Shown here piece by piece: positions 1,406-24,934 of a DNA stretch of 64,000 bases (position 1 is its first letter; each line of letters begins with the position of its first letter). Source of the stretch: a virus. Under the pieces are notes generated by a model that saw only the letters and a program-made list of their open reading frames with translations, searched no databases and had not been told where the DNA came from. The stretch is from positions 32,001-96,000 of IMG/VR virus record IMGVR_UViG_3300008262_000018, one strand, 5' to 3'. The position numbers and the translations under genes are program-made.

Positions 1406-1424
1406 GAATTTCCTAAAAATTTCA

Positions 1425-1903: not shown

Positions 1904-1928
1904 CAACCATAAACTAAAAACTTAATTT

Positions 1929-3116: not shown

Positions 3117-3171
3117 ATCTTATAAGTTTAATTTTAAAATGTTCCAAGTTTTTAGTAAATTAATAATGTAG
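3115..3171 (+). promoter_or_regulatory. Extended AT-rich regulatory element, copy 1
   Basis: Aligns over about 55 nt with 24943-25001. Confidence 0.45.
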
Positions 3172-3177
3172 ATCATT

Positions 3178-4441: not shown

Positions 4442-4446
4442 TACCT

Positions 4447-5304: not shown

Positions 5305-5306
5305 TT

Positions 5307-5666
5307 ATGAAATATACATTAAAAATTAAGCTACCAACATATAATTGCGAGCTTCAATTTTATGTTACAGATCAGTTAAATGCTGAAATAAACAAAGTGT
5401 ATAAAAAATATAAAGTGGACGATGTGTTTGAGGATAGTGCTGAGGGAGTGTTATTTACACCAGATATTGATAAATATATACTTTTTATAGATATTAAATA
5501 TCTTAGTCATAACACTATAGCACATGAAATTTTTCATGCGGTTGTAAAAATAACAGGAGATAGAGATATAGAAGATGAAGAGGCACAAGCTTGGTTGGTA
5601 GGACATATCACTGGAGATGTCTATAAGTTTTTAAAGAAAAAAGTAATAGAGATAACTAATGGCTGA
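5307..5666 (+). CDS. Small HExxH metallopeptidase-like protein
   Basis: TIAHEIFHAV plus downstream EAQAWL. Confidence 0.65.
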   Translation: MKYTLKIKLPTYNCELQFYVTDQLNAEINKVYKKYKVDDVFEDSAEGVLFTPDIDKYILFIDIKYLSHNTIAHEIFHAVVKITGDRDIEDEEAQAWLVGHITGDVYKFLKKKVIEITNG

Positions 5667-8600: not shown

Positions 8601-10338
8601 AGATAATCCTGGTATTCAGTTTGACAAGGGTAATTTGTTTTATGTTAAGACAGGGTACTTTTATCTTTTTAATTCAGGAGTGAGAGACTTTTTTGTAGAA
8701 TCAGAAGTTAATGTGGCGCTTAGAGATTGGGAAGATGAGTTTGGGAAAAGACATTATGATCCTTACGAGTATACAGATCTTCAAACAATGTTTAGAAGTG
8801 ATCTAATAAAGAATGGTAATTTTTATAAATATGACTATTCATTAAGTGTTTCTAAACTTCCTGGAAGTTCTACAACATGGGGTAAACTATTTGATAGATT
8901 TTACGATCCTCAAGATGCTTCATCATGTTTTACTTATACACCTAATAGAATCATATATTCATCAGCGTCTGATATAGATGCACCCACTGTAACAAGAAGT
9001 GTTCAAGATAACTGGAGAATATTTTTACCAAATAACACAAAGGATTTTGAAACTAATGTTATTTCTATAAAACCTATTAATAAAACAGGTGCTTTGTTTT
9101 TAATGGAAAAGCAAAGTCCATTTTCATTTTCAGGTCAAGAGCAGTTTAAAACAGATCAGGTTAATACAATAATAACTATTGGTACAGGAGATCTATTTAA
9201 AAGTTCTCTTCAAAATATTATAAGATCTGAAGATTATTTTCAATATGGTTCTTGTCAAAATAGATATTCTGTTCTAAACACGTTACACGGTGTATTTTGG
9301 GTGAGTCAAGAGCAAGGTAAAATATTTTTGTTTAGTAGTGGAATAAAAGAAATTACAAGAGATACAGGTTTAAAGATGTGGTTTTCTAGAAACCTCCCCT
9401 CTAATCTTTTAAAACAATTTCCAAATTATATACATAAAGATAACCCTGTAAAAGGTGTAGGTGTATTAACGTCATATGATAATACGTATGAAATCTTTTA
9501 TGTAACTAAAAAAGATTATAAACTAATAGATCCTAATCGAGGTATTTATTTTTATGATGAGGTTCAAGATGAGTTTTATTTTAATGGTAGTAAAATACTA
9601 TTAACAGATACAACACATTTTGTAAAAGCTGATTGGACTATTAGTTATGATCCAAAAAGTCAACATTGGATAAGTTTTCACGATTGGCATCCAACATTTA
9701 ATGTATCAAGTAAGAACCACTTTTTAACTGTTAATAATAACTCTGTTTGGAAACATAATGTAAGATGTGATAGTTATGGTAATTTTTATGGCGTTAACTA
9801 TCCTTTTGAAATAGAGTTTGTGTCATCAACTGGTCAAACAGTTAATTCCATGAGGAATATAGAATATGTGTTAGAAGCATATAGATATCATAACGACTGC
9901 TATGATAAGTTTCATGTTCTTGATGAAAACTTTGATCAAGCAATTATTTATAATTCAGAACAAATATCAGGTGTTTTAAATTTATTTTTAAAAGATAAAA
10001 CAAATCCTTTAGATGTAATAAAGCAACCTGTAATAAATGCTAATTCAATTGACATATTATTTTCAAAAGAAGAAAATAAATATAGATTTAATCAGTTTTG
10101 GGATATAACAAAAGATAGAGGTGAATTTAATAACGTTAATATTCCAATGTTTGTTACAAATGCAAATGGATATGAATATAATATTAATCCAGCATATGTA
10201 AACTATAATAAACCTGTGCTACAACGTAAAAAGTTCAGACATCATGTTAATAGAGTTTTCTTAAGAAGAAATGTGAGTGGTAGTAATAATATGTTATTTA
10301 AGTTATCTAACCAAAAACTACTAAACAGTCCACGATGA
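5659..10338 (+). CDS. Tail stabilisation / muzzle protein (crAss-like Tstab)
   Basis: 1559 aa, beta-rich; GYMRDEQYAF, IRHHKMPD and WTISY...WISFHDW motifs; position after the ring genes. Confidence 0.75.
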   Translation: MAEETNQSQNAGTSKTNTFQKGMVKDYNETFVGEGLYTHARNAINNTHHGQIGVLGNEPSNLSCYNFPYTVIGAVHMYDDTWAIFTTNDVDSEIGLFDDSQCSYETIVNNKCLNFKKSNLITGAYKERYDCERVIYWDDGLNPTRFLNIDDIPWNENCVVQNDCRICTPIIGDLDCDQLRIAPFVTTPCIQVEKGKIAGTLPNGSYQVCIAYTINQVRITDYIGLSEVQPLFNHLGNSSSLEVKINTIDKDNFDEFELVVYATINLGTYAKRIGYYSTSQGTIYIDRWDPEFVTVPIELIPMRTEPVERTDAMFQLNNYLVRTGPRSKYKFNYQPQANNIISKWVAVQYPEDYYRKGGNNAGYMRDEQYAFFIRFIYNTGDRSESFHIPGRATFVGDRTIVTGDDIYETIPVEKWKAYNTGTVIPSAPIPQLPDGGIPLAQGYMGYWEAESEFYPDDKPDIWGNLCGKKIRHHKMPDETVDPILSTFRPGGKSIVLLGVRFENITPPLDENGNPITSIVAYEILRGSREGNKTILAKGIINNMFEYPIPGNNLVKGLFQNYPYNDLRADSYLTTKRQTSNTGDPFPASTVNNTTAPKLNTVKRDIFSFHGPDVVFSNPFLSANELKLYSEFNGKQLGIFAVPFRHPRFKVISNAPAIVADLIALADTISSAANIVATIVGTQGSTSSNTLSFSGTEGLPLIFQYGPLKRPPAPPSEDSVTSGGVNRALNYALWALELVGWATQTLALIKLELAMQSAKAEKLLDVLKYIIPNVQYARQYRSHGLYDNFKSLQTNNTRRSLVEANYIFPQIQQFTLDYQVNNINRSQYVCLQLDKVLADPLTQDTSKFLLSDVGCDDGSDHERPISSYYGALKIPIPNQYGQLWTIKQLPINSNCLTQIKPSFTSVTSPILFGGDVYITRFTEKNTMFFFDNWLVGEPDEALIDYTYYTNIPWPRHWINTEPQKLVSLTNTPAVYRSLDCNQDNPGIQFDKGNLFYVKTGYFYLFNSGVRDFFVESEVNVALRDWEDEFGKRHYDPYEYTDLQTMFRSDLIKNGNFYKYDYSLSVSKLPGSSTTWGKLFDRFYDPQDASSCFTYTPNRIIYSSASDIDAPTVTRSVQDNWRIFLPNNTKDFETNVISIKPINKTGALFLMEKQSPFSFSGQEQFKTDQVNTIITIGTGDLFKSSLQNIIRSEDYFQYGSCQNRYSVLNTLHGVFWVSQEQGKIFLFSSGIKEITRDTGLKMWFSRNLPSNLLKQFPNYIHKDNPVKGVGVLTSYDNTYEIFYVTKKDYKLIDPNRGIYFYDEVQDEFYFNGSKILLTDTTHFVKADWTISYDPKSQHWISFHDWHPTFNVSSKNHFLTVNNNSVWKHNVRCDSYGNFYGVNYPFEIEFVSSTGQTVNSMRNIEYVLEAYRYHNDCYDKFHVLDENFDQAIIYNSEQISGVLNLFLKDKTNPLDVIKQPVINANSIDILFSKEENKYRFNQFWDITKDRGEFNNVNIPMFVTNANGYEYNINPAYVNYNKPVLQRKKFRHHVNRVFLRRNVSGSNNMLFKLSNQKLLNSPR

Positions 10339-13300
10339 GTTATAATAAAAAAATGTTTAGAGAAATGGTGGAAGAATCTAAAAAGAAAAAAGTTCTTCCA
10401 AAACCTAAAGATAGGATAGTAGATCCTATGGGTCAATGGGCTCATCCAGGACAAGTGACACGTATTCCTTCTAATAGAATAACAATGCAGGGTGTTCCCT
10501 ATCCTGTATTAGGTGTAGGTAATAATGGTCAACAACAAATGATGTATCCAGGACAAGAATATAGTTTTCCTGGTTCACAATATGTAGATGAATATCCTTT
10601 GATGCAAGCTCAAAATGGAGCTATTATAGATCCTGGAGATGATGAATTAGCTTTTCAAAGGTTTTTTAAAACTCTTCCTTTTAATTTAAGAGTTGATAAT
10701 CCTAGTTATAATATTAGAGGATATTGGAATGCTTTAGGTAGACCAGAAAAATTTGACTACAGTCAACCAAAAGAGGATGATGGAATGTACCATGCATTTA
10801 GTAGAAATCCAAACACTGGTGAAATATTAAAAAGACCTCAACATCCAACATTTAAAATGGCTATTGAGGGAGATAGAGCTGCTGGATATTATCCAATAGT
10901 AACACCTGATGGGAAAATAAAAACAGTATCTGGAAGAGATTTTAAACCTGGTCAATCTATATATTTTAATGGAGGAGATATATCTATACCTAATTTAAAA
11001 AAAGAAGGTTGGTTAAACAAATATGATAATGGTGGACAACTTGAAAAATTTAAACCAGGTGGATTTTTTACAGTACCTACCACTACTAAATTTGATTGGA
11101 GTACTGTACAACGACTTCCAACTAAAGAAGAAAGAGACGAATATTATGCAGAGCAAGGAAGAAATAAACAAAATAAAACAGCAAGAGGACAAATAATTAA
11201 TAAAACTAAAACTACTACTCAAAATAATACTTCCACTACTGCTCAAAATAAAACAAATCAAAATAGTTCTGGAGTTTCTTCTGAAGCAAATCCTAATTAT
11301 AATTGGAATATGACTAGTATTGTTCCTGAATGGACGACAAATACACAATTTCCTACTAGTAATAAAATTCCTATAAATATTAACTATGAAGATATTGTTC
11401 GCAGAGGAGATTTAGAAACACAAACTGGTACAGGTAGACAAGTTCTTTTAAATAAAGCTATTGCTTCACAAAACATTGCTAATCAAAAATTTGAAAAAGG
11501 TGTAGCTGCATTAATGAGTTCTGGTATGTCAGAAGAAAGTGCAATTAGAACATATCAAGAGTATATTAGAAATCCAAAACTTCTTCCAGGAATAGGTTGG
11601 CAGATTGATGATATTGAAAATAGAAACTATAGGATAAGCATGCATCCTGATTATGATCCTAATAAATCTTTTGACCAACAAAAATATTTAGCTACAGATG
11701 GATCACTAAGAGCAAGACTATTAAGAGGTTCTAATATGTTAAATAGTAGTGGAGATCCTGTTTTAAATTTTTTAACTGGTGCTATAACAGCACCAGGAAG
11801 AGCTTTTGCAAATCTTACAACAAATGCTAACCAACGATATTTAAATTCAGATAATTCAATTTTAGAAAATGTTACAAATTTAGGTCTTGATCTTCTTGAT
11901 GTTACTGGAGCAGGTATATTTACTCCTAAAAATGCAGCAAAATTGGTTGGAAATAAAGGTTATACTACGGCTCTTAATCTTTATGGTGATAATATTCCAA
12001 GATTTTCAACAAGTGGTACAACAAATATAGGAAGTTCTTCAGCTCTAAATTTATCTAGAAATTTAGATAATACTGGAGTTGGAGCACGTACTCAAAATAC
12101 TGGAGTAGCTACTCAAAATATTTTTAATAACTCATCAGATGCGATAAATACTGGAGTAGTTTCTCCAAAAGTAAATTTAGCAACATCAGGTAATAAAACA
12201 AGAGCACAAATTCAAGCTGAGAATCTTAGACGTATGGCAGCAGAAGGGGAGGCAGCTAGAAATGCTGCGGTTAATCAAGCTAAAACAACATCACTTGTAT
12301 CTAGAGAAGATGTGGCAAGAAATGTTCTAAAAGATGATCCAATATTTGGTGGCACTGAAGGTGGATGGGGGCGTACTGGTAGTGGTAATAAATCTTTGTC
12401 TTATGATGATATGGTTGATCGTCTTCATGCTGAATATGCTCAAAATGACGTATTAGCATTAGGTAACTATCCTGTTTATTTTCATGGAACAACATCAGGA
12501 TCTCTACCTGGAATTGTAAAAAATCAAGGATTAATACCAACTGGAAAACTTATTAGCCAAGGAGATATTCCTTTAACAGGTGAATTAAGTTTTGGAAGCT
12601 TACCTGGAATAGGAATGAATAATGAAAATCTTTCTGCAGCTTTTATAGGAGACATTAATAGTTCTCTAAATTATGCAGGTGGAAAAAATTTTATTAACCC
12701 TATACAACGACTTGAAACATGGAATACAGTAGATAGACCAGAAGTGATTTCATGGATGCCTGAAAACCAAATTAAATTTTATGATGAATTACTTACAAAT
12801 CAGGCAAATAAATGGCAAACACTTTCTCAAGAAGAAAAACTATTAGCTGAAGAAAACTTTCCTATTTTGTTTGGTATAAGACCAAAAGGAGCAGATAGAT
12901 TTAGTACAATTAGAACATCTATAGACGGAGAAGTTGGTATAAAGGGAGGTGTAGGTTTTAATGAAATTCCTAGTGTATATGTTCCAAAAAGTAAAATAGA
13001 ATATGTTTCTCAATATTTTGGTAATCCAGATAGAATGAATATATTACCAATAGATGAGTTATTGTTAAAGCACAATCAAGGTACAATGCCTAGTTGGTGG
13101 AAGTGGAAAAAAGGTGGAACAATTGGACAATATAAAAAAGGTGGTTGGTTGAATAAATATGATGATAGTAGATTTACTACAGTGTCTACTACTACTTTTT
13201 CACCTGAACAAAAAAATAATCTTGTTACTAATTTAAACTATTGGAAAAATGTTAGCAATAACATGGGAAATCAAAATGCAGGTGAAAAACCTAACAATCC

Positions 13301-16300
13301 AAAAGGAAAAGACAGAGGTGTTTATTTAGGGGATGATAATAGATGGCATTGGAAAAATTGGTGGAATGGTAAAGAATACACATATTATAATCAACCTACA
13401 ATGCCAGGATCTAAAGGTCAAGGATGGGATGAAGATATTATTATAAAAGGACGTGCAAAACCAAAAGAAGAACCTAACATTGACGATTATTATATTCGTG
13501 ATGCTAATGGTAGCATTATAGGTTTTGATAATGAAGGATGGCAAAGAGATAAATATAATAGAGATGTTACTACAATAAATGCAAATGATCTAATTACACA
13601 ACGTTCTCCTATTGAATTAACACAATCTTTGAATCAATCAAAATATAATAGTCAAGTAACAGGATTAGATAATGAAGAAATAAGACAAGCAAAAGAACAA
13701 GAAAGATTAGCATATTTACAACAAAAAGAAGAGGAAGAACGTAATAAACAAGTAATAGATATTAGGAACGATTGGGTATGGATGAATGAAGAAGAAAGAA
13801 ATGCAGAAAGAAATGCTGCTAGTTTTAGAGGTGATAATACATCACTATCTCAAAATTTTCCAGTATATAATCCTATTACTAAAAAATATGAACAAGCTCC
13901 AAGAAGTGATGCCAAATTTTCTAAATTGTGGTCTAAAGATTATTTAAGAGAGAAACCACGCGATATGACCTGGGTAGATTGGGCTCTTCTAGCAGCTCCT
14001 GCTGCTGTTATTGGAGCTGCTACTGCTCCTGCTTGGGTACCTGCTGTAGGTACTGCTCTTACTGCACCATTTACAATAGGTTCTACAACAGTTCCATGGT
14101 TAACAGCAGGTAATGTTCTTAGTGCGTATGGTGCTACTAATAGTTTAATGAATTTAGGAAATCCATCATCTAACTTATATAGATCAATTGGAGAAGCTTA
14201 TAGAAATCCAAATGTTAATACTATAATAAATGCCACTGGAAATGCTCTTGAAACAGGATTAGGTTTTTATGGATTTCCTGCTAAAGCAGGTGCAATATCA
14301 TTAGTTGATGATCTTTCAAGAACAGGTAGATATTTAACAACTCCTTTAAGAAATACAAAAGCATCTAAAACTATTTCACAACTTTCACAAAAAAATTATG
14401 TAGATAAACAAGGACTACCAGTTGTAACTTTTGATGATATAGACGCTCTTATTGAAAAACAAATTAATTGGTTAGATAGTGATGAATATGCTATAAGAAG
14501 AATGGCATCTACTGGAGAATCTTTAAATGAAATTAGAAAAAGTACAGATAAATGGATAAATCAAATAAGAAAAAATAAAAAAGATGTTTTTCGAGTTAAT
14601 CCAAATCTTGAGTCTCAAGGAGAATATAATCTTATACCAGATTATCGTAATTTTATTACTACTTTAATGGGAAAAAGAAAACCTCGCATCATGTATCGTC
14701 CACAAGACAGATCTAATATGTTAAATATTCTTGATCATGAAGTTTTACATGCATTTTCTCCAGCTCTTAAAAATGATAAATTATATAAAAATTATCCAAC
14801 ATTAGATGTTCTACAACCTACTAAACGTACCTTTTTTGAAAAGTTATTTAACAAAAAGCCTTATACTAAAGAGGAACAACACTTGCTTTATCTAGCAGAT
14901 AAACCAGAACAACAAGTAAGAGGAGTTAGATTATATCAAAAAATTATTGATGATTTAGATATTCCAGAATATAGACCAATAACACAAAAAGAATTTGATG
15001 ATTGGATAGATAACTATTTTAATAAAAATGCAAATAAATATTGGGATGAAGGTCTTGGTGATGTAGTTGAGTTATTAGGTTCTGCTAAGCGTGAAGCAGA
15101 TATTAAAAAGACATTAGGTACTGATAAAGGAGTTTTATTTCGAAAATCTGTTTTAGACTTTCTTAATAAAGTATGGGCAATTCCTGCAGCTATTACTATT
15201 GGTTCTGAAACTTTAAAAGAAAAAAAACAAGGTGGAGAAATTAATTGGTTAACTAAGTATGATGATGGAGGATTTGCAACTACAGGTCTAAGTACATATC
15301 CTTCATATATTACAAATAATGTAAATGTTGCAGAAAGTACAAGACCTTCAAATTATAAAAAATTTGAAATAATAGAAAAACAAGAACAATCTGCTTTAAA
15401 TAATAATGTAAAATTTGTTAAAATTAAAACTAATAATGGAAGTTATATTAATTTAAGAACAGATAGTAAAGAATACAATGATTTAATAAAAAATAATGCT
15501 ATTGATCCTTATTCGTTTAATAAAGCAGATGGTTCGTTTAGTTTAAGACCACAAAAACAACAAAAACAAGAACCATCTGCTTTATTAGGCGAAGTAGGAT
15601 CAATAGCTAAAGAAAATCTTAAAAAAGTATATAATAAACTTGAAGAAACAGCAGAAGATTTGTGGAATTCTTATTCAAAAGCGATGAATCAAGCTCCATT
15701 AGATGCTAAAGGTATTAATCTTGGATCTGGATTTGGGGGCATAGAAAGTAAAGGAGTAGCAGCAAAAATAGCAGAGGCAACTAGAGGTTATGTTAGTGGG
15801 GTTATTCGTAAACTTGATCAAATGAAAGAAGAAGACAAAAAAGCAAAAGTAGTAGAAAAGAAAACACCTATGGTAAAAAATTCTCAAAGAAATATATTAC
15901 CACAAGGTTATACAGAGCTAGCTACTGTACCAGATGTTTATTCTTCAAATCCTACAGATAGTTTAGTTTCTTTTATTAATGTTTTTGATAATGATGAAGG
16001 AATTGATTATATTGTAGGTAATAAAATAAAAGAAATTACAGATGGAAAAAATGTACTATCAAGATATGGTAATACACGAGCAGTAGCTCATTTTTTAAGA
16101 GATGCTGATATACTACCTAATCAACAATTTGCACCAATGGAATGGCCTACTATAAAAGGGTATACATTCCGTAGCACATCCCCAGGTAAAGCTATTTCAG
16201 CTACAGGTTTTGATGATCCCGAAAGATATAGAATGCTTTATCAAAAAACTGGTGATGGAAATAGATATCGTATAAAGTATGTTAAAAATAAAGATTTAAC

Positions 16301-16811: not shown

Positions 16812-16812
16812 T

Positions 16813-18141
16813 ATGAAAAAAGAATTTTTAAAAATGGCTGGTGTAGAAAATGAAAAAGATTTCTACAAATTATTTCCAACAGAAGAAACATTCTTTGGTA
16901 TGTATCCTGAAGCTAGAAAACTAGTTCAAAAGAAATATGGAGGTTTAATTAAAGCTAAAGGAGGATTTGGTGTTACAGGTTTAACCACAGCACCATCATT
17001 AAATAGAACTACTGAAATAGATGACCCATCACGTACATCTTCTAATTTTGCTGCAACACCAATAGCTATAAATCCTAATATGGTAAATCCTAATATAGTA
17101 AATCCATTATTTAGAAGATTTTCAGGAAATCTTAAGTTTAATTGGGGTGATCCTAAAAATAGAAATGTTTTTTCCTACGGATTAACAAAAGAAAAAGAAA
17201 ATCCATATTATAGTCATAAAGCAGGCTTAAGTCTTAATAATTTATTTTCTCCAGGTAGAGGTAGTTTTAATTTAACTGGTGGTTATACACCAAAAACTGG
17301 TGAATATAATGCAGGATTTAATTTTGGATTACCAAGTAGAAGAACTATAGCAAAAGACGAACCTAAATCTAATTTCAATGCTGGATTTAATATCATGCGA
17401 AATGATAAAGGTAGAGTGACAAGAACAGCTGAAGTTGATTATAATACAAGATTGGGCAATAAAAAATCTTCTCCAACATTAAGTGTAGGTGTTGATTTAG
17501 GATATAGATATGGTGGTGGATTAATAAAAGCTGTTGGTGGATTTAATGTTACAGATTTAAGTACAAAACCATCAATGAATTGTAGCAAGGGTAGTTGTCA
17601 AATGAATACAGATGACTATAGCTGGATAAAACAGAATCAAAAAATAAAACCCCCACCTCTTATAAGTCCTTGGGAAGCTATAACTTGGAATAAAGGAGAA
17701 TTTGCTGAAGATCAGCATGCTAAAATAAAAAAAGAGTGGGAACAGAATAAAAATTTATATGCTAACAGATATCCTAATTTAACATATGATGAATTTTATG
17801 CAGCTAATGAATTAGAAAGATATAATAGATTAAATCAAGGTCAATATAATAATTACTTTGATGCACAAGGTAATCCTGTTGAAGGAATGGATGCGCGAGT
17901 TTATTCTGCTCAACCTTATATTCCTTGGGCTAGAGCTGCTTTTAATACACCAACTCCTTCTCGTGAAGCAATTTTAGATTATTTTCAAACTCATAAGTTA
18001 AACAAAGATGATATAAAAAACTTTGTTAATGATCGTTATACATTTCCAAAAGAACATATGGTAGCACCTCCTTATTTTAGAATGGGTGGTGGTTTAATGT
18101 TAGGTAAACAAGGAAGTAAAAAAAAAGGGTGGGTCAATTAA
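16813..18141 (+). CDS. Cargo-region protein with duplicated YGG(G)LIKAxGGFxVTxL[TS]TxPS linker and beta-barrel-like module
   Basis: ORF track; internal duplication at about 16933-17000 and 17509-17575. Confidence 0.65.
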   Translation: MKKEFLKMAGVENEKDFYKLFPTEETFFGMYPEARKLVQKKYGGLIKAKGGFGVTGLTTAPSLNRTTEIDDPSRTSSNFAATPIAINPNMVNPNIVNPLFRRFSGNLKFNWGDPKNRNVFSYGLTKEKENPYYSHKAGLSLNNLFSPGRGSFNLTGGYTPKTGEYNAGFNFGLPSRRTIAKDEPKSNFNAGFNIMRNDKGRVTRTAEVDYNTRLGNKKSSPTLSVGVDLGYRYGGGLIKAVGGFNVTDLSTKPSMNCSKGSCQMNTDDYSWIKQNQKIKPPPLISPWEAITWNKGEFAEDQHAKIKKEWEQNKNLYANRYPNLTYDEFYAANELERYNRLNQGQYNNYFDAQGNPVEGMDARVYSAQPYIPWARAAFNTPTPSREAILDYFQTHKLNKDDIKNFVNDRYTFPKEHMVAPPYFRMGGGLMLGKQGSKKKGWVN

Positions 18142-20243
18142 ATACATATAACAAGGGTGGATTTGTAACAACAGAAGCTACAACAAGACCTAGTGTATCA
18201 GAATCTGATAAACAACTTTTAGATGATGTTAGAAATAAAAAAATTGCTTGGTATAGTCAACGTGTTAATCATCCAGATCCTAGAATTAGCTCTGAAGCTA
18301 GACAAGCACTTGAGTTATTAAATAAGTTTCCTGCAGATCCTAGTAAAGATATAAAGTACACTGATATACCTCTTTTACAACAAAGTGGAGTTGTTGGTTT
18401 ATACCAACCTTATGAAAGAAAAATGTATTTAGCAGATCCTTATAAAACTTTTGATCAACAAGTAAAGTCATATTATCCTAGAGGACTAAGAAATCCAGGA
18501 GAAAAAGATGAACTTAAAAAATACTACGACTACGCTATGACTTCTGAACCAAGAAGTCATGAAGGTGAGCATTATTATGAACATCCTATATTAGATAATA
18601 TAGTTAATAAATATAACAATCAGATTTTTTCACAATATGCTGATCCAGATGTATATAGAGATCTGCTTTATGAAAGAGTAGGTAAACCTGAATTCCCTAA
18701 AAAAAGAGATCAATATGCATTTGATCTAGACGCTAATCATTTTTATAAATGGATGACAGGTACTGATGATCCTCGTTTTGGGTATAATAAAAGAAAAGGA
18801 GTTAATAAACATTTCACTCCAGCTGAAATGTATAGGGCACTTAATGATATAAGAACAGAATATAATATAGATGCTTCTAAAAATACAAGTCCTGAAGATT
18901 TTAAAACTATTTATGAAAAAGTTCAACAATCTTATAAAGATGCTAAAGAAAAGAAAGATAAGGGCGCTGCTATGAGATATGGTCATATGCTTGATCTTTT
19001 CTACATTCACGGAAATGATTTTGAAAAGATAAATAATTTGAATAACTTATTAGTGAGAGATGTGTCTTCGGATTTACCAGTTGCTGATGAAGGATTTATT
19101 GTTACAACAGATGTCACAAGTAAAAGTCCTTCTCAAATAACACGTGAGATAATCTTACTTGGGGAAATAGCTAGAGCTGAGCATGAGGAATTTAAAAAAA
19201 GGCTGAATGCCACTAAATTTTCATTAAGCAATCCACATTTAGCAACACTACCATCATCTGAAGATATGGCAGCTGCTAGAAGACTTGATGAACAAAAACA
19301 ATTCTATGAGGAAAACCCAAATGCTGGTACAATGGCAAGAGGTGATAATACAGTTCTTGTTAAAAACTTTCCTGTTACAGATCCTATAACAGGTAGACTT
19401 ATTCAACCTCAAAAACTCACAGCACCAGCTTGGGCAAAAGGATTATCTTATGAAGCTTGGGATATTGCAAATCAACCTGGTTTTGTTACTCGTTTGCAAA
19501 GAAATCCTTTGCCATTATGGGCACAATTGCTTGATCCTACAGGAGTTAGCAACTATGGAAATGTTAAAACATCTTATGAAGATATGGTAAACTCTGAAGG
19601 GTTTTGGCCTAAAATAGGTAATTCATTACTTTTTGGACTAGATGTTCTTAGTAGTATACCAATTATTGGAAAAGTTCCTAAAGTCCTATCAGGTGCTACT
19701 AAAGGATCAAAAGCTGTAAAAGGAGCAAGCAAAGCTTCTAAAGTTGCAAAAGTAGCAAAACCAAATGTTGCTAAAGAAATATTTTTAAGACCAATAACTA
19801 ATATAGATAGATTTACTGGAGCAAATAATTTATTTCGTTTATCATCAAATGCACCTACCTGGTTAAACAGAGCAACTAATCTAACAAATTCGTTTAATAG
19901 AGGTAGGCGATATTTTGGAGGATTATATCACGGTGGTATGTATGGATTAGATGCTCTTTCTAATTTAGGATCTCAAAATCAACCAGAATATATTCCAAGT
20001 GGTGTAGGTACTGTAGATACTGGATATACAGATAATCAAGAAAAAATTAAAAAAATAGAAAATGATTCTTTGTATGCTAGTCCAGGTGGTGATGATGAAA
20101 TAGTAACATTTCAACTCCCTGATGGGCGTGTTGTAAAAATGAGTTCAGGTAGTAAACCATACGCAGATTTAATGAACAGAATTGATTCTTATGATTTTGA
20201 TGATAAGAAAAACATGTTTATAATAAAAAAATATAAAAAATAA
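18129..20243 (+). CDS. Cargo-region protein with a HExxH zincin module and hydrophobic segment; may be a frameshifted continuation of 16813-18141
   Basis: RSHEGEHY motif; GTG start two bases after an A9 run; frame opens only at 18120. Confidence 0.65.
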   Translation: MGQLNTYNKGGFVTTEATTRPSVSESDKQLLDDVRNKKIAWYSQRVNHPDPRISSEARQALELLNKFPADPSKDIKYTDIPLLQQSGVVGLYQPYERKMYLADPYKTFDQQVKSYYPRGLRNPGEKDELKKYYDYAMTSEPRSHEGEHYYEHPILDNIVNKYNNQIFSQYADPDVYRDLLYERVGKPEFPKKRDQYAFDLDANHFYKWMTGTDDPRFGYNKRKGVNKHFTPAEMYRALNDIRTEYNIDASKNTSPEDFKTIYEKVQQSYKDAKEKKDKGAAMRYGHMLDLFYIHGNDFEKINNLNNLLVRDVSSDLPVADEGFIVTTDVTSKSPSQITREIILLGEIARAEHEEFKKRLNATKFSLSNPHLATLPSSEDMAAARRLDEQKQFYEENPNAGTMARGDNTVLVKNFPVTDPITGRLIQPQKLTAPAWAKGLSYEAWDIANQPGFVTRLQRNPLPLWAQLLDPTGVSNYGNVKTSYEDMVNSEGFWPKIGNSLLFGLDVLSSIPIIGKVPKVLSGATKGSKAVKGASKASKVAKVAKPNVAKEIFLRPITNIDRFTGANNLFRLSSNAPTWLNRATNLTNSFNRGRRYFGGLYHGGMYGLDALSNLGSQNQPEYIPSGVGTVDTGYTDNQEKIKKIENDSLYASPGGDDEIVTFQLPDGRVVKMSSGSKPYADLMNRIDSYDFDDKKNMFIIKKYKK

Positions 20244-20270
20244 TTATTCACAACTTTAAATTTAAAAACA

Positions 20271-22157
20271 ATGTATTACGGAACAAATCCTTATGGTTTA
20301 TCACCTTATATGTATGATGATCCATATACTACCTTGCAACGCGCTCAATATGGTTTAGAATCTGGTATGCCTTTTGAAGGTTTACCTCAATTAACTGGAT
20401 TACCAGAACCAGAACCTCAACCTGCAAATTACGCTTCATATCGTCAATTTAAAGATGCTTATGATAAATGGGTTATTGACAACTCTATGCTATCTCAAAT
20501 GGCTAATGTAGAAGATCCTGGTTTAGTTTCAGATCAAGGTGTAGTTGTACAAAATCAATCACCTTCTGGTTTTGTAGAACCTTCTTATCAAGGTCCAACT
20601 GTTGTTGAATATCTTGGATCAGCTGGTAAAACTTCAGATTATGCTACAAGAAAGCAAATTGCTAAAGTTTTGGGTATTCCAAATTACAAGGGTACTGCTT
20701 CTCAGAATAAGTTAATGATTAATCTTTTAGCTCAAAATCCAGCAGTTTTAAATAGTATTGCACAAAGTGTTAGTAGAGGTAGAGTAGTAGCACCTACTGG
20801 AATAGCTCCATCTCCTTCTATTGAAGAAGAAGAAGTTATTGTAGAAGATACAACTGGTGTAAACATTCCTATTGTTGATAGTTCTGGTAATGTTATTGAT
20901 ACAACGTCAGGAAGAGTTCTTACAACATTACCTAAATCTACTTATAAATCTAAAGGAAAAAAAGAAGAAGGATCTAGTAATCTTGAAAAAGCAATTGCTG
21001 CTTTATCTGCAACAGCACTTATAGGTGGAGCTGGGTATGCTGGTTTTGTAGAAGCAAAAAATATAATTGCTAGTACGTATAATTTAACAGGTGAAAATTT
21101 AAAATTATACAATGAGATTAGTAAAAAAAGAATAATGCCTAAAGTAAGAGGTGCTATAAAAGCTTGGGAAAACTTAGGAGATGAGGGTCAAGCAACATGG
21201 CGTGAACTAGACGATATGATTCGAGAAGATGCACGTATAGCTCGTAAGTATAAAGGTATGACAGCTGAAGAAAGAGTTGCATTTGATCTTCTTGAAGAAC
21301 AACGTAAACTTGAAACTGCTACTCGTACTCAGAAAACCAATATGAGATTAATGCAAAAATATGCTCCAAAAGGTACACCAAAGCTTACAGTTCCAAACAC
21401 TCCAAAAGCATTACCAAAAGTAAAAGCTCCTGTATCAACAGGGAGAGTTCTTCCTAAAGCTACTTTCTCATATCAAGGAGCAGCTCAACAACTTGGAAAT
21501 ACAATGACAAGAGCTTCAAACTATATAAAAGCAAGCAAGCCTTTTCAGAGAACATCAAGTTACTTAGATGAAATTTCAGCTACAGCTAGAAATCTTAAAA
21601 ATTCAAAAGCTTTTAAAACTGCTGGTAATTTGTTAAAAAGATTTAGATTTCAAGAGGGTGGTGAACAGCAAAATCAAATGATGCAACAAATTATTAGTTT
21701 TATTTCTCAAGAGTTACAACAAAATAAATCACCTTATCAAATAGCTGAAGCTTTAATGACGTATGGTATTTCACAAAAAGATGCTTTAGATTTAGTTGAT
21801 CAAGTTACAATGCAGATGTCACAATATATGCAATCAAATATGGCTGGTGCTCCACAAGGAGAAGATCAAGGATATATGTCAGCAGATCAAGGAGAAGCAG
21901 CTCAACAACAAATGATGATGGCATATGGTGGTGGATATTCAGGTACGTATGATCAAGGATCAGGATCTTATTTTCAAGCAGGAGGATCTTTTGTTCCTAC
22001 ATATGGTGATATTCTTCCTCAGTATATGTATGGTTCTGGTTATGATCAATCTTATATGCAAGATGGTGGTTCATTAAATATAGGAGATATGCTTGATGTA
22101 ACTCCAGAACAAATGGAGTATCTTCGCCAACAGGGATATGATTTTGACACAGTGTAA
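20271..22157 (+). CDS. Cargo-region protein with DUF3597-like peptidoglycan-binding domain, hydrophobic helix and GG-motif array
   Basis: TVVEYL..AG...RKQIAKVLGIPNYKGTASQN; AIAALSATALIGGAGYAGF; FQEGG, MAYGG, FQAGG, MQDGG. Confidence 0.6.
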   Translation: MYYGTNPYGLSPYMYDDPYTTLQRAQYGLESGMPFEGLPQLTGLPEPEPQPANYASYRQFKDAYDKWVIDNSMLSQMANVEDPGLVSDQGVVVQNQSPSGFVEPSYQGPTVVEYLGSAGKTSDYATRKQIAKVLGIPNYKGTASQNKLMINLLAQNPAVLNSIAQSVSRGRVVAPTGIAPSPSIEEEEVIVEDTTGVNIPIVDSSGNVIDTTSGRVLTTLPKSTYKSKGKKEEGSSNLEKAIAALSATALIGGAGYAGFVEAKNIIASTYNLTGENLKLYNEISKKRIMPKVRGAIKAWENLGDEGQATWRELDDMIREDARIARKYKGMTAEERVAFDLLEEQRKLETATRTQKTNMRLMQKYAPKGTPKLTVPNTPKALPKVKAPVSTGRVLPKATFSYQGAAQQLGNTMTRASNYIKASKPFQRTSSYLDEISATARNLKNSKAFKTAGNLLKRFRFQEGGEQQNQMMQQIISFISQELQQNKSPYQIAEALMTYGISQKDALDLVDQVTMQMSQYMQSNMAGAPQGEDQGYMSADQGEAAQQQMMMAYGGGYSGTYDQGSGSYFQAGGSFVPTYGDILPQYMYGSGYDQSYMQDGGSLNIGDMLDVTPEQMEYLRQQGYDFDTV

Positions 22158-22168
22158 AATATATTATA

Positions 22169-24934
22169 ATGCCTAGAATTATTATTAAAAGAAAAGGATT
22201 GGTAAAAGCATTTGATGGGTTAAATCTAACAACAACTAGCACAACTTCAGCTTCTGGAGTAGTAGGAAGTGGTGTTTTTGCTCCTGGATACGGGGTTAAT
22301 GCTACAACTACAACTACAACAAAACCTCCTATTCCTTTTTCAGGTGCAGGAACTAATCCAAATGAAAGTACTACTAACCCATTTAGTACAAATTTTAATG
22401 CATTGGATTGGGCTAGAGATTTGTATATGAACCCTGCTAAATCTTCTCCACAACCTGAAAGACTAAGTTGGGCTGAAAGAACTCAAGATAATCTTAATAG
22501 ATTTTATTCTTCATTAGATGATATTAGAGCACCTTTAGCAGAATATGATGCTTATAGAAGAAATAGAAGAGCAGAAAGATTTGATAGGGAAAATAGTTTA
22601 CCTGATAACTATTTAGCAGTGGGTCAGCAAAGTGCAGCTAATACTAGAGGGGATTGGGATATAAATACAGGTATGTTTGGTAAACAAGGTAGTTATGTTG
22701 CAAACAAAGGACAAACTATTAATCCTACAGGTTTTTTACCTGAAAGGGGCTTTAATAACAGAAACGCACAATATGGAGGGCAACAAGGTATGAAAATTAG
22801 AATAACAGGACTACCAAACCAAGAACAAATGGCTTATGGTGGTCAAGCAAGACATTCGTTAGATATTAGAAGAGATGCTTTAGCAAATCCTAATATTACA
22901 TATGAAGATCCATATGAAGTTAATAATACACTTCAACCTGTTCCCAGAGATGAAGCAAATCTAGAAGCAGAAAAAGATGAAACTGTTTTTGGAGATATTG
23001 ATGGAGATGGTGGTTTTGAACATTTTAAAGTGGGAGGTAAGCGACATTCTCAAGGAGGCACTCCATTAAATCTACCTGAAGGATCTTTTGTATTTTCAGA
23101 CACTGCTAAAATGAAAATAAAAGATGGAGAAGTTCTAGCCTACTTTGGATTGAAACCTAAAAAAGGTGGATACACTCCTGCTGAAATTGCTAAGAGATAT
23201 GATATAAATAGATATAAAGGTATTCTTGAAAATCCTGAAGCTGATGAACTTAGTAAAAATACAGCACAGCAGATGGTGAATAATTACAATAAGAAACTTG
23301 CGTATCTTGCTCTTATTCAAGAATCAATGAAAGGATTTCCACAAGGTATTCCTGAAGTTGCTCAAAAAATTCTTGGATTAGAAGCTCCAGAAGAACAAAT
23401 GGCTTCACCTGAAGATGAAGAAATGGCTATGCAAATGGGGCAACAACCTCAGATGATGGGACAACAACCAAGTGAAGAAGAAATGATGATGATGCAACAA
23501 CAAGGTGCAGAACAGCAAGCTCCTCAAGAACAAGCAGGACAAATGTTTTCTTATGGTGGTGAGTCTCAACTTATGAAATATGCACCTGGAGGTGCTTTTG
23601 ATTTTCCAACAACAAGTACATCAACTTTAGTTGGTAGTGGCTCATCTTTTGATCCAAATGTAACATATCAACATACAGCAACTCAACCTGGTTATTTAGA
23701 TTATAGTGATCCTAATTATGCTGGAGGTATATGGGCTGGTGATAGATATGAGACTGAATGGAAACCTTTAGTTAGTACAACTCTTGATGATCCAACTAAG
23801 TATGATAGAGTTGTAGAAGCTCTTGATAATTATACAGGTCCTGATGCAGATGATGTTAGAGCAATTATGTCTAACGCTAGATCAAGTGGGGATTTAAAAG
23901 GTAGAATTAGAACTTACTCTACAGACACTAAAGTAGGACCTTTTCATAATGCTGTTTATAGTGCTATAAATAGTATAAATGATACTACAACAACTACTAC
24001 TGCAGCTGTTGTACCAGATAAAAAAATTGGATGGAAGTGTGACCCAGCTACAAATAAACCTGTACCAAAAGAATATGCTACAGATGCTGAAATGACAGCT
24101 GATGGTGCTGTAACATATGAGAATCAAGCTAGTCTTCCTTGTGCAAAACCTGGTGATGTAAATTCAGGTAAACCAAGTAATGTTCCTTATGGACCATTGT
24201 GGCCTGATACAAGAAACCTTGCTAGAGCTGGTATGTTCCCACCAAGAAATTATTCTTTAGGTATTAAAGCAGCTCCTTATTCGGAAGATTCTGTATTTTT
24301 AAAAGATCCTAGACAACAACTTGCTGAAAATCAAAGTTTGCAAAACGCTGCTATGCAAGCACTTAGTACATCAGGAGATGTAAGAACATTAGGATCTATA
24401 GGAGCTGGTCTTCAAGGTCAAAGTTTAGCAAATGCTTCTAAAATTATTGATCAGGTTCAAGGTCAAAATGTAGATATTTTAAATGATTGGGCTAAATTAC
24501 GTGGTCAAAAACAACAAGCATACAATCAATATGCTGCTGATCTTGCTACACAAAGAGCATTTTTAAGTAAAGACACAGACGTATTTAATTTAAATCAACA
24601 AAGAGCTTACCAAAGAGGACTAGGTCTTGCTGAAACAAATCTTTGGAATAACATGATGAAGATGGGTCTTCTTAATGCTACTAACCCTCGTTATAATATT
24701 GATCCTAGAACAGGTCGTGTTATATTTAAAGGTGGTTATGGACCTGGAAATTTTGGAGGAGGATCTCAGTTTCAATATGGTACTAGAGAACACTATCTTG
24801 AAATGAAATCTCGTTTTCCAACATTAAGTGAAGAAGAATATTTAAGGATGGGTAAAAACTTTCCAAGCAAAACAGAAGAACCAGATCCTTATGCTCCTTA
24901 TTACAATTTTTATAATCCAACAATTCCTGAATGA
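22169..24934 (+). CDS. Internal virion (cargo) protein, crAss-like
   Basis: ANLEAEKDE...GGKRHSQGGTP...FVFSD motif typical of crAss-like cargo proteins; Q/M-rich and T-rich tracts; GG linkers. Confidence 0.65.
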   Translation: MPRIIIKRKGLVKAFDGLNLTTTSTTSASGVVGSGVFAPGYGVNATTTTTTKPPIPFSGAGTNPNESTTNPFSTNFNALDWARDLYMNPAKSSPQPERLSWAERTQDNLNRFYSSLDDIRAPLAEYDAYRRNRRAERFDRENSLPDNYLAVGQQSAANTRGDWDINTGMFGKQGSYVANKGQTINPTGFLPERGFNNRNAQYGGQQGMKIRITGLPNQEQMAYGGQARHSLDIRRDALANPNITYEDPYEVNNTLQPVPRDEANLEAEKDETVFGDIDGDGGFEHFKVGGKRHSQGGTPLNLPEGSFVFSDTAKMKIKDGEVLAYFGLKPKKGGYTPAEIAKRYDINRYKGILENPEADELSKNTAQQMVNNYNKKLAYLALIQESMKGFPQGIPEVAQKILGLEAPEEQMASPEDEEMAMQMGQQPQMMGQQPSEEEMMMMQQQGAEQQAPQEQAGQMFSYGGESQLMKYAPGGAFDFPTTSTSTLVGSGSSFDPNVTYQHTATQPGYLDYSDPNYAGGIWAGDRYETEWKPLVSTTLDDPTKYDRVVEALDNYTGPDADDVRAIMSNARSSGDLKGRIRTYSTDTKVGPFHNAVYSAINSINDTTTTTTAAVVPDKKIGWKCDPATNKPVPKEYATDAEMTADGAVTYENQASLPCAKPGDVNSGKPSNVPYGPLWPDTRNLARAGMFPPRNYSLGIKAAPYSEDSVFLKDPRQQLAENQSLQNAAMQALSTSGDVRTLGSIGAGLQGQSLANASKIIDQVQGQNVDILNDWAKLRGQKQQAYNQYAADLATQRAFLSKDTDVFNLNQQRAYQRGLGLAETNLWNNMMKMGLLNATNPRYNIDPRTGRVIFKGGYGPGNFGGGSQFQYGTREHYLEMKSRFPTLSEEEYLRMGKNFPSKTEEPDPYAPYYNFYNPTIPE

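What the first reader, a model, noticed from the sequence alone, without database searches (positions are those of the whole stretch)
10335..24934. Candidate virion-delivered effector polyprotein system segmented by a recurring K-x-x-x-GG linker
Seen: five consecutive cargo ORFs carry more than 20 copies of a K/R-[AYFM]-x-x-G-G type motif. Many are doublets: GWLNKYDNGG..KFKPGG (11007-11063), KKGG..YKKGGWLNKYDD (13107-13166), KKQGGEINWLTKYDDGG (15222-15272), KKIGGETKNWLNKYK* (about 16764-16808), KKYGGLIKAKGG, YRYGGGLIKAVGG, QLNTYNKGG and FSYGG..KYAPGG. Singles include AQYGG, MAYGG, FQEGG and MQDGG. The linkers sit at the borders of unrelated modules (ART-like, zincin, barrel-like, hydrophobic, PG-binding) and I do not see them in the tail or replication genes. 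Established: double-Gly sites are cleavage signals for several proteases, and crAss-like cargo proteins are ejected into the host. Inference: these ORFs are polyproteins cut during maturation into a swappable set of injected effectors.
Basis: partly seen in the sequence, partly recalled or inferred. Interest (0 to 1): 0.88.

Follow-up and report, generated by a model that had tools for sequence, protein, structure and literature searches.

The report
Junction tags in crAss-phage cargo proteins

Summary
The motif is real, but it is not a uniform K-x-x-x-GG site. Its core is a self-contained peptide, about K-x-GG-W-L-(N/D)-K-Y-x-x-GG. In this lineage a Thr-rich piece (F-x-T-T-x-x-T-x-P) follows it.

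The window holds 7 full and about 3 partial copies. All lie in the cargo genes downstream of the muzzle gene; none lies elsewhere in the 121-kb genome.

A profile of the motif finds 160 proteins among 1.84 billion, nearly all long and multi-copy. Of the 149 that I re-scanned, 41 end with the tag and 23 begin with it.

In 68 of 77 related loci the first cargo protein ends with the tag just before a conserved start domain of the next gene. Homology blocks start and stop at the tags, so module swapping is supported.

Cutting is not supported:
- None of six protease families was found.
- A tag-like peptide lies inside the solved, continuous crAss001 C1 fragment.
- Complete tags sit at natural protein ends.

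It is not excluded either, because two embedded HExxH modules exist.

The ORF2/ORF3 split is a one-base homopolymer difference.

Earlier agents of this scan reported the same tags in at least ten other crAss-like genomes. I found no published description.

The parts
3764..5304 (+). Context: tail ring protein 2 (3764-4441) and ring protein 1 (4447-5304)
   Evidence: Pfam PF25702, E 4.9e-23, and PF24228, E 3.9e-13.
5659..10338 (+). Context: crassvirus muzzle protein, 1559 aa. The cargo block starts at its stop codon.
   Evidence: Pfam PF25731, E 5.9e-34. PHROG virion structural protein, E 1.3e-65.
10335..16811 (+). O1, first cargo protein, 2158 aa. It has four tags and ends in a tag.
   Evidence: ORF. 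Tags. No Pfam or PHROG family.
10416..10607 (+). O1 aa 28-91: small conserved domain that travels with the tags.
   Evidence: Found by phmmer in 93 of 164 stored proteins, as 99 domains: 53 N-terminal, 29 internal, 17 near the C-terminus.
10989..11105 (+). Tag copy 1 (O1 aa 219-257): doubled core plus Thr-rich piece.
   Evidence: Homology blocks end or begin here.
13095..13205 (+). Tag copy 2 (O1 aa 921-957).
14340..15209 (+). O1 aa 1336-1625: module with HExxH at aa 1468-1472 (bases 14736-14750).
   Evidence: BLAST to P0062 aa 1253-1581, E 2.4e-34. HExxH is kept, and the module ends in a tag in both proteins. A zincin fold was not shown.
15210..15320 (+). Tag copy 3 (O1 aa 1626-1662): the fullest composite copy.
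15867..16760 (+). O1 C-terminal module (about aa 1845-2142).
   Evidence: Homologous to an internal module of L004 (aa 942-1303's stop-to-stop numbering, E 3e-54), which is followed there by a tag, and to P0060, P0062, P0144, P0098 and P0068.
16761..16808 (+). Tag copy 4: core only, forming the C-terminus of O1. The stop lies 1 base before the O2 start codon.
   Evidence: The same arrangement is seen in 68 of 77 related loci.
16813..16932 (+). O2 aa 1-40: conserved start domain of the second cargo protein.
   Evidence: 220 relatives in viral contigs. N-terminal in all 16 of 16 occurrences among the 164 stored proteins. Alignments A3 and A5.
16918..17013 (+). Tag copy 5 (O2 aa 36-67).
17494..17589 (+). 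Tag copy 6 (O2 aa 228-259). The module between copies 5 and 6 is absent from relative L002.
18073..18209 (+). Tag copy 7, spanning the apparent O2/O3 border. The run of 9 A at 18118-18126 is 10 A in other assemblies, which makes O2-O3 one 1143-aa protein.
   Evidence: Sequence. Stored protein P0003 matches O2 at 438 of 438 residues and O3 at 703 of 704. An extra A follows 18117 in contigs of X1, X6 and X8.
18210..19079 (+). O3 aa 28-317: module with invariant HExxH (aa 144-148, bases 18558-18572), bounded by tags on both sides.
   Evidence: HExxH in 6 of 6 homologues. The same module is C-terminal in the first cargo protein of L002.
19080..19136 (+). Partial tag (Thr-rich piece only) at O3 aa 318-336. 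It is the C-terminal border of the HExxH module.
20271..22157 (+). O4, 628 aa. It carries aromatic-x-GG seams in a Gln/Met-rich stretch (GG at bases 21657, 21927, 21981 and 22065). Its C-terminal peptide (22053-22154) resembles the C-termini of second cargo proteins in relatives.
   Evidence: PHROG 2307 match at aa 106-162.
22169..24934 (+). O5, 921 aa: C1-type cargo protein with an added N-terminal module.
22763..22846 (+). Seam in O5 (aa 199-226): two aromatic-x-GG motifs around a peptide that forms the N-terminus of the homologous protein in L002, L005 and L007.
   Evidence: pLDDT is under 50 here.
22922..23389 (+). [quoted passage not shown]
   Evidence: AF2 pLDDT 82-92. The top PDB match is 7qog_M in both Foldseek (E 0.16) and VIA-align (Z 5.0, rmsd 4.7, 95 of 126 residues aligned); both are weak. 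BFVD rows named 'Cargo protein 1 compact domain' appear, the best at E 6.2e-3.
23537..23641 (+). Tag copy 8 (O5 aa 457-491).
   Evidence: pLDDT is under 50.

Best explanation
The block 10335-24934 encodes the variable virion cargo proteins of a crAss-like phage. There are really four proteins: O1, O2-O3, O4 and O5.

Each protein is a chain of independently folding modules. The modules are separated by flexible stretches that carry one conserved short linear peptide, about K-x-GG-W-L-(N/D)-K-Y-x-x-GG. In this sub-lineage a Thr-rich F-x-T-T-x-x-T-x-P piece follows it.

I read the peptide as an uncut tag. A conserved partner inside the assembling or mature particle would recognise it, so that each module or separately encoded piece is loaded and held in place. 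On this reading, any fusion, fission, insertion or swap made at a tag leaves both products loadable, which would account for the shuffling seen there.

**Shown:** the tag, its restriction to cargo genes, its position at module borders and at natural termini, and the shuffling at it.

**Inferred:** that the proteins are in the virion, that the tag binds a partner, and that it stays uncut in this phage.
For: **Specificity**
- All 7 full copies pass leave-one-out.
- The genome-wide profile search finds 8 places, all in these genes.
- The copies differ in codons.

**Breadth**
- 160 proteins score E <= 1e-3 among 1.84 billion representatives, 14 of them E <= 1e-10. In one search's listing of the best 150, all but a few are longer than 450 aa (range 264-3390) and each has 2-9 matched stretches.
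- My re-scan of the best 150 gave 435 copies in 149 proteins.

**A self-contained unit.** Over 381 anchored copies: W 96%, L 97%, Y 90%; G-G before the core 80% and 82%; G-G after it 72% and 73%.

**Position at natural termini**
- The whole unit forms the C-terminus of 41 and the N-terminus of 23 of 149 proteins.
- The protein upstream of the start-domain gene ends in the tag in 68 of 77 loci.

**Borders.** 34 of 72 match ends lie within 15 aa of a tag, against 8.0 expected. There are explicit cases of one module being terminal in one phage and internal in another.

**Structure.** The seams flanking the O5 domain are modelled as disordered (pLDDT under 50) next to a confident domain.

**Uncut precedent.** The tag-like peptide at crAss001 C1 aa 427-435 lies inside the resolved chain 425-552 (PMC10172136, passages; chain range).

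**No protease.** The genome has no S78, C39, C48, C5, M23 or ClpP match.
Against: - No partner is identified, and nothing here measures binding.
- No virion proteomics exists for this phage or any tag-bearing relative. None is in the GenBank phage set at the sensitivity used.
- Two HExxH modules in the same proteins could be processing enzymes, as Iyer et al. 2017 proposed for polyvalent proteins (PMC5512222, passages).
- The crAss001 peptide has a shorter core than the consensus, and in that protein it may simply be the first strand of a folded domain.
- The tag and the start domain sitting next to each other in 68 of 77 loci may reflect shared descent of a syntenic gene pair rather than an interaction.
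- The tail's hit list scores near the threshold.
Confidence: 0.5

Rival explanations
1. The ORFs are polyproteins, and the motifs are recognition sites where a protease separates the modules during maturation or after injection. The protease would be one of the embedded HExxH modules, a host enzyme or an unrecognised phage enzyme.
For: - Tags lie exactly between modules.
- Fused and split forms interchange freely, as expected if covalent linkage does not matter in the end.
- HExxH is invariant in 6 of 6 homologues of the O3 module and is kept in the O1 module.
- Iyer et al. 2017 predict processing of polyvalent proteins by embedded zincin-like peptidases and cite processing of phage P1 DdrB (PMC5512222, passages).
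- Natural C-termini stop 0-2 residues after the Tyr. They could mimic a cut end.
Against: - Complete tags also stand at natural N-termini, in 23 of 149 proteins, so no single cut position explains both kinds of end.
- The most conserved residues are W, L and Y between the glycines, not a GG-X bond.
- No known GG-specific or prohead protease family is in the complete genome.
- The tag-like peptide of crAss001 C1 is intact in the solved virion.
- The same paper notes that the N4 virion RNA polymerase, which also carries such a peptidase domain, is packaged unprocessed.
- The zincin fold of the modules could not be confirmed.
Confidence: 0.2
2. The peptide is a passive structural joint. It would be a small hairpin or hinge that keeps neighbouring modules apart, soluble and able to unfold one after another while the chain is threaded through the portal and tail. 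It would have no binding partner and would not be cut.
For: - Gly-Gly pairs flank a 5-7 residue core, and a second short Thr-rich strand-like piece follows in this lineage.
- Seams are modelled as disordered.
- Bayfield et al. argue that cargo proteins must pass constrictions under 50 Angstrom partially unfolded (PMC10172136, passage).
Against: - A hinge does not need near-invariant W, L and Y over hundreds of divergent proteins.
- A hinge has no role at the very first or very last residues of a protein, yet complete tags sit there in 41 and 23 of 149 proteins.
Confidence: 0.15
3. The tag acts after ejection. It would be a short linear motif that engages a host envelope or periplasmic component, or the membrane interface, to hold the injected chain in place while the channel forms or effectors act. 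Colicin translocation domains use short epitopes in a similar way (recalled, no call).
For: - Trp, Tyr and Lys are typical interface residues (established knowledge).
- The motif has many copies per chain.
Against: - There is no evidence for any host partner.
- The tag is conserved across phages whose hosts are unknown and probably diverse, whereas host-directed epitopes usually diverge with the host.
- The strict placement at the end of the first cargo protein, next to the start of the second, points to a role within the phage's own set of proteins.
Confidence: 0.1

Closest known systems
Cargo protein C1 (gp45) of Bacteroides phage crAss001 (Bayfield et al. 2023, PMC10172136; PDB 7QOG chain M)
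   Same: - The gene lies directly downstream of the muzzle gene.
- The protein is long, with separate pieces bound to the tail barrel and the portal.
- The compact domain of O5 has this chain as its top PDB match (Foldseek E 0.16; VIA Z 5.0, 95 of 126 residues). BFVD rows named 'Cargo protein 1 compact domain' also match.
- gp45 has aromatic-x-GG seams at aa 209, 263, 332, 427 and 562. The seams at 209, 427 and 562 lie at the edges of the two resolved pieces, 214-245 and 425-552 (together with the passages).
- One of these seams is G-G-W-L-N-x-x-G-G.
   Different: - There is no sequence-level match.
- crAss001 has one C1 and one C2, not four mosaic proteins of up to 2158 aa.
- It lacks the full W-L-(N/D)-K-Y core, the start domain and the small domain of O1 aa 28-91.
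- The paper does not mention any repeated motif: the words 'cleav', 'proteoly' and 'protease' occur 0 times.
Polyvalent proteins of phages and conjugative elements (Iyer, Burroughs, Anand, de Souza, Aravind 2017, PMC5512222)
   Same: - They are giant phage proteins that string together unrelated domains.
- They are thought to travel with the DNA.
- They show extensive mosaicism.
- They carry embedded HExxH modules proposed to process the chain.
   Different: - None of the Pfam families that describe such proteins matches O1-O5. An Atlas lead to LPD23 scored 0.79, below the level at which the tool's own notes count it as more than chance.
- The paper describes no conserved junction peptide: the word 'linker' occurs 0 times.
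Capsid targeting sequence of phage T4 internal proteins (recalled, no call)
   Same: A short peptide shared by otherwise unrelated proteins that directs them into the assembling head. This is the nearest analogy for how the tag may work.
   Different: - The T4 signal is strictly N-terminal, single-copy and removed by the prohead protease.
- Here the tag is N-terminal, C-terminal or internal, has up to 5 copies per protein in my re-scan, and no prohead protease family is found.
Gly-Gly-X processing of viral polyproteins (adenovirus protease, African swine fever virus pS273R) and double-glycine leader peptides cut by C39 peptidases (recalled, no call)
   Same: Gly-Gly next to module or leader borders.
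   Different: - Those systems need a dedicated cysteine protease. No C5, C48 or C39 match exists in the complete genome.
- Here the conserved residues lie between two Gly-Gly pairs.

Membership tests
crAss-like virion cargo gene block | Genes lie directly downstream of the tail ring and muzzle genes on the same strand | tested here: met
   Ring protein 2, ring protein 1 and the muzzle protein at 3764-10338. O1 starts at the muzzle gene's stop codon.
crAss-like virion cargo gene block | One protein carries the C1 compact (portal-bound) domain | tested here: inconclusive
   O5 aa 252-407 was modelled at pLDDT 82-92. 7qog_M is the top PDB match but weak: Foldseek E 0.16; VIA Z 5.0 against 4.3 for the next row. 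The best BFVD row named 'Cargo protein 1 compact domain' has E 6.2e-3. There is no Pfam or PDB sequence match.
crAss-like virion cargo gene block | Proteins detected in purified virions | not testable with these tools
   The phage is uncultured. No relative was found in the GenBank phage set.
Polyvalent proteins (Iyer et al. 2017) | Several unrelated domains in one phage polypeptide, with mosaic architectures among relatives | tested here: met
   Module-wise homology to different proteins in different orders.
Polyvalent proteins (Iyer et al. 2017) | Embedded zincin-like metallopeptidase domain | tested here: inconclusive
   HExxH is invariant in 6 of 6 homologues of the O3 module and kept in the O1 module. 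No family or PDB match was found, and the AF2 model was too poor to search with (mean pLDDT 41.6).
Gly-Gly-X viral polyprotein processing | A cognate clan CE or C39-type cysteine protease encoded by the virus | tested here: not met
   No match at E <= 1 to PF00770, PF02902 or PF03412 in the complete 121,096-base genome. The C48 and C39 controls scored above the family cut-off in known genomes, while the C5 control reached E <= 1 in 3 control genomes but the cut-off in none. A very divergent or novel protease would be missed.
Gly-Gly-X viral polyprotein processing | Mature proteins whose termini lie at the Gly-Gly sites | not testable with these tools
   This needs virion proteomics.
T4-type capsid targeting sequence | N-terminal signal removed by a prohead protease | tested here: not met
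   Tags are C-terminal (41 of 149 proteins), N-terminal (23 of 149) or internal. No S78 or ClpP-type prohead protease was found.

The most novel reading that the evidence does not exclude
The W-L-(N/D)-K-Y tag is a plug-in address code. One receptor inside the particle reads it. Candidates are the portal wing, the start domain of the second cargo protein, or the small domain of O1 aa 28-91 that accompanies the tag in 93 of 164 stored proteins. On this reading, any module that carries a tag would be loaded and lined up for ordered ejection. The separately encoded cargo proteins might also be chained end to end without covalent bonds. This would be an undescribed way for a phage to load, and rapidly re-equip, its set of injected proteins.
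Probability: 0.3. Interest if true: 0.8.

Novelty: new variant of a known kind. Interest (0 to 1): 0.55.

Why it matters
Crassvirales are among the most abundant phages known, yet how their large protein cargo is chosen, packed and ejected is open. Only fragments of one cargo protein have been seen in the one solved virion.

A short peptide shared by hundreds of otherwise unrelated cargo modules gives that question an experimental handle:
- a peptide to mutate;
- a bait for finding the receptor in the particle;
- a marker that identifies cargo genes in uncultured phage genomes where no family annotation exists (O1-O5 have no Pfam match).

If the tag suffices for loading, it could also be used to load foreign proteins into phage particles in laboratory strains.

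For annotation, the work shows that these giant genes should be read module by module. It also shows that the O2/O3 split in this record is a homopolymer difference, not two genes.

Tried and rejected
**Docking test.** I folded the start domain of O2 (alignment A5, 48 aa, 22 rows) with the C-terminal tag of O1 (A4, 35 aa, 22 rows). Scores were 0.16 and 0.14 against a mark of 0.32. The tool's verdict is 'no answer': it counts neither for nor against binding.

**AF2 of whole O3 (alignment A6, 6 rows).** Mean pLDDT was 41.6, with the HExxH region under 50. I did not search folds with it.

**Family and structure searches that gave nothing usable**
- Profile of A6 against PDB sequences: only chance-level rows.
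- phmmer of O5 and profile A2 against PDB sequences: no relevant row.
- Pfam on the members of A2: nothing relevant.
- Pfam at E up to 10 on O1-O5: nothing relevant.
- PHROGs on 25004-27418, 27443-40270 and 40280-46213: no family. I therefore do not name these ORFs RNA polymerase subunits.
- Atlas search with O3 aa 25-325: best scores 0.83 and below, with an LPD23 row at 0.79. All are below the level that the tool's notes treat as more than a lead.

**Searches for relatives that found little**
- Megablast of the block against GenBank phages: no match.
- tblastn of O1 against GenBank phages: only a 98-aa match to cr111_1, which lies outside that phage's cargo block.
- tblastn of the start domain and of P0058 against GenBank phages: no match.
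- The search for related loci with O1: none.
- The search for homologous proteins with O3: only P0003 among 8000 scored candidates.

**Sequencing runs.** No RNA holder is listed for the stretch. The contig of run X9 does not reach the homopolymer.

**Ideas considered and dropped**
- *A prepilin-peptidase site (G-F-T).* No hydrophobic stretch follows it.
- *The Bacteroidota O-glycosylation sequon in the Thr-rich piece.* The copies do not fit D-(S/T)-(A/I/L/V/M/T) consistently (recalled motif, read by eye).
- *A choline-binding repeat.* The copies are single, not in tandem.
- *A sliding-clamp binding motif.* Position 4 does not fit.
- *A DNA-level repeat.* Shared words are at most 10 bases.
- *The need for an A-rich leader before the next gene as the reason for the C-terminal tag.* The same peptide is conserved internally and at N-termini.

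**Literature.** I saw search listings only for (0 papers). In one search the strings WLDKY, WLNKY, GGWLDKY and GGWLNKY, searched anywhere in a word, returned 2 unrelated papers. I read passages of PMC10172136, PMC5512222 and PMC10136315, not the whole texts. Supplementary and extended-data tables were not available. In particular I could not see the peptide map of gp45 (Extended Data Fig. 3) or the virion protein table (Extended Data Table 3) of PMC10172136. These could show whether peptides cross the seams.

Full report
**Context.** The window is bases 32001-96000 of a complete 121,096-base virus record with direct terminal repeats. Pfam identifies tail ring protein 2 (3764-4441), ring protein 1 (4447-5304) and the crassvirus muzzle protein (5659-10338; E 5.9e-34). 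[quoted passage not shown] The finding covers the five ORFs that start at the muzzle gene's stop codon. None has a Pfam family at E up to 10. The only PHROG match is O4 aa 106-162 to a family annotated as L-alanyl-D-glutamate peptidase. Runs that hold the sequence are labelled lake and freshwater metagenomes, and also 'fungus metagenome'.

**Observation.** Plain Gly-Gly is only mildly enriched: 44 observed against 33.6 in within-protein shuffles, with 24 of 1000 shuffles reaching it. Gly-Gly preceded by Lys or Arg within three residues is clearly enriched: 26 in 4853 aa against 22 in 15878 aa elsewhere, with 0 of 1000 shuffles reaching it.

The underlying object is a longer peptide. Its order is a basic residue, Gly-Gly, a W-L-(N/T)-K-Y core or a weaker L-I-K-A version, a second Gly-Gly, then F-x-T-T-x-x-(S/T)-T-x-P-S (alignment of 7 copies). 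Each copy, when left out of the profile, still ranks directly behind the six training copies and ahead of all other six-frame segments. The profile finds nothing else in the window or in the whole genome, where all 8 places lie in O1, O2, O3 and O5. Codons differ between copies, and no two copies share more than 10 bases.

**ORF2 and ORF3 are one gene.** The O2 stop and the O3 start overlap at a run of 9 A (18118-18126). Stored protein P0003 (1143 aa) equals O2 over 438 of 438 residues, then continues in the -1 frame and equals O3 over 703 of 704. Contigs of three runs from three studies carry one more A behind 18117; a fourth run's contig does not reach the place. One of the three, X1, may be the source of this record, so X6 and X8 are the independent ones. 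The tag at the 'border' is therefore an internal tag of a 1143-aa protein. Whether the 9-A form is an assembly error or a minor variant cannot be told from contigs.

**The tag elsewhere.** A profile of 18 copies from the window and from two related viral contigs (A1) was run against 1.84 billion representative proteins. It found 160 proteins at E <= 1e-3 and 14 at E <= 1e-10; of the best 150 listed, all but a few are longer than 450 aa (range 264-3390), and each has 2-9 matched stretches. My local re-scan of the best 150 gave 435 copies in 149 proteins, 1-5 per protein.

Anchored on the core (381 of the 435 copies), the logo is P/K-K-K-x-G-G-W-L-(D/N)-K-Y-Q-x-G-G. The frequencies are W 96%, L 97%, Y 90%, the first Gly pair 80% and 82%, and the second 72% and 73%. 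The Thr-rich extension occurs in only 13 of 150 proteins (24 copies), always right after the second Gly pair, so it is a sub-lineage feature.

**Position.** Forty-one of the 149 proteins end with the tag, 0-2 residues after the Tyr. Twenty-three begin with it, directly after the Met or a few basic residues.

I tested this here. The first 40 residues of O2 form a conserved domain with 220 relatives in viral contigs. In the best 80 loci, 77 have an upstream ORF of at least 100 aa ending within -80 to +40 bases of the start codon. Of these 77, 68 end in W-[LIMV]-x(1-2)-[YF]-x(0-3), and several of the other 9 end in near-variants. The window shows this arrangement itself: O1 ends in the tag one base before the O2 start.

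The start domain was N-terminal in all 16 of 16 occurrences among the 164 stored proteins. Tags and the small domain of O1 aa 28-91 behave differently. That domain occurs in 93 of the 164 proteins and appears at N-terminal, internal and C-terminal positions.

**Module swapping.**
- The O3 HExxH module (aa 1-325) is the C-terminal module of the first cargo protein in relative L002. There it starts at a tag and is followed by a terminal tag.
- O2 aa 237-433 matches L002's second protein at aa 50-239. The window therefore has an extra module inserted between two tag copies.
- The O1 C-terminal module is internal in L004 and is followed there by a tag.
- The conserved part of O5 (aa 215-481) is N-terminal in L002, L005 and L007 and internal in L004.

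Over all 36 matches of at least 100 aa, 34 of 72 ends lie within 15 aa of a tag, against 8.0 +/- 5.0 for random tag positions. Only a full-length orthologue spans a tag. The matches are related to each other, so this count overstates independence.

**Structure.** AF2 on O5 aa 208-480 (6-row alignment) gives a confident domain at aa 252-407 (pLDDT 82-92). Its flanks are under 50, and those flanks hold the aromatic-x-GG seam and tag copy 8. The model's best PDB match in both Foldseek (E 0.16, probability 0.63) and VIA-align is 7qog_M. In VIA-align the values are Z 5.0, rmsd 4.7, 95 of 126 residues and chain range 425..548, with the next row at Z 4.3. Chain 7qog_M is the portal-bound fragment of crAss001 C1. 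By the tools' own notes both values are weak. BFVD gives 3 matches at E <= 1e-3, among them a virion structural protein of Cellulophaga phage phi4:1. It also gives four rows named 'Cargo protein 1 compact domain', the best at E 6.2e-3. I take O5 as the probable C1 counterpart.

**Cut or uncut?** Arguments for cutting:
- The tags lie at module borders, and fused and split forms interchange.
- Two modules have conserved HExxH (6 of 6 homologues for the O3 module; kept in O1 and P0062).
- Iyer et al. predict that such embedded peptidases process polyvalent proteins.

Arguments against:
- The conserved residues lie between the glycines.
- Complete tags stand at both kinds of natural terminus.
- The genome has no Peptidase_S78, C39, C48, C5, M23 or ClpP match; the C39, C48, S78, M23 and ClpP searches found their families above cut-off in control genomes, the C5 search did not.
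- In crAss001 C1 the peptide G-G-W-L-N-x-x-G-G at aa 427-435 lies within the chain resolved as residues 425-552.

The aromatic-x-GG seams of C1 at aa 209 and 562 lie just outside the two resolved pieces, so they are uninformative. The paper reports mass-spectrometry peptides at 79-101, 181-190, 275-300 and 307-320. None of these crosses a seam. I could not see the extended-data peptide map.

**Conclusion.** The modular, swappable architecture is supported. Proteolytic maturation is neither shown nor excluded, and I consider it the less likely reading (0.2).

I commit to an uncut tag read by a partner in the particle (0.5). A passive joint (0.15) and a host-directed motif (0.1) are the other rivals. 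The partner is unknown.

Earlier agents of this scan reached similar readings on at least ten other crAss-like genomes, so this is a further instance and not a first sighting. My searches of the paper library found no description of the peptide.

Noticed in passing
window 18118-18126: A run of 9 A splits a 1143-aa gene into O2 and O3. Contigs of three other runs and a stored protein carry the 10-A, single-ORF form. Contigs cannot tell whether the 9-A form is an error, a variant or a slippage site.
   Followed up: yes
window 10416-10607 (O1 aa 28-91): A domain of about 65 residues is the commonest companion of the tag. It occurs in 93 of 164 stored proteins, at N-terminal, internal or pre-C-terminal positions. 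No match was found in crAss001. It is a candidate receptor or anchor, untested.
   Followed up: partly
window 22053-22154 (O4 C-terminus): The last 30 or so residues of O4 resemble the C-termini of second cargo proteins in relatives, which begin with the O2-type start domain. O2-O3 and O4 together may therefore correspond to one protein elsewhere, such as the 1845-aa protein of L002. I did not check the O3/O4 border against other assemblies.
   Followed up: partly
window 22790-22816 (O5 aa 208-216): A peptide that forms the N-terminus, Met included, of the homologous protein in L002, L005 and L007 is internal in O5, between two aromatic-x-GG motifs. This may be a recent fusion or an internal start.
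   Followed up: partly
L008 (crAss001 gp45, aa 209, 263, 332, 427, 562): Aromatic-x-GG seams of crAss001 C1 lie at the edges of the two cryo-EM-resolved pieces, 214-245 and 425-552. G-G-W-L occurs twice, at aa 155 and 427.
   Followed up: partly
window 36-1405, and the Thr-rich pieces of the tags: A methyltransferase and a family-2 glycosyltransferase lie at the window's start. Earlier notes (e1-6160847, e1-6160849) link Thr-rich virion proteins to a possible phage O-glycosylation system. I did not test whether the Thr-rich tag extension is a target.
   Followed up: no
L097 (uncultured phage cr111_1, locus 8164-10119): The O1 module at aa 137-234 has a 38.5%-identical counterpart in a 651-aa hypothetical protein of a human-gut crAss-like phage. 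That gene lies beside a tRNA cluster and outside the cargo block.
   Followed up: partly
proteins P0152-P0160, P0162: Start-domain proteins of relatives carry Pfam DUF5872 and DUF5754 right after the start domain, and P0161 carries DUF3597. None of these is found in the window's O2.
   Followed up: no
window 27443-46213: Two giant ORFs (4275 and 1977 aa) follow the cargo block, where crAss001 has its RNA-polymerase-associated genes. Neither has a PHROG match, and the 1977-aa ORF, the only one of the two scanned with Pfam, has no Pfam match.
   Followed up: partly
window 46740-47591 (-) and 60613-63023 (+): Three further genes: a spore-photoproduct-lyase-like gene, a protein with the Fibrobacter succinogenes major domain, and a DUF6734 protein.
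   Followed up: no
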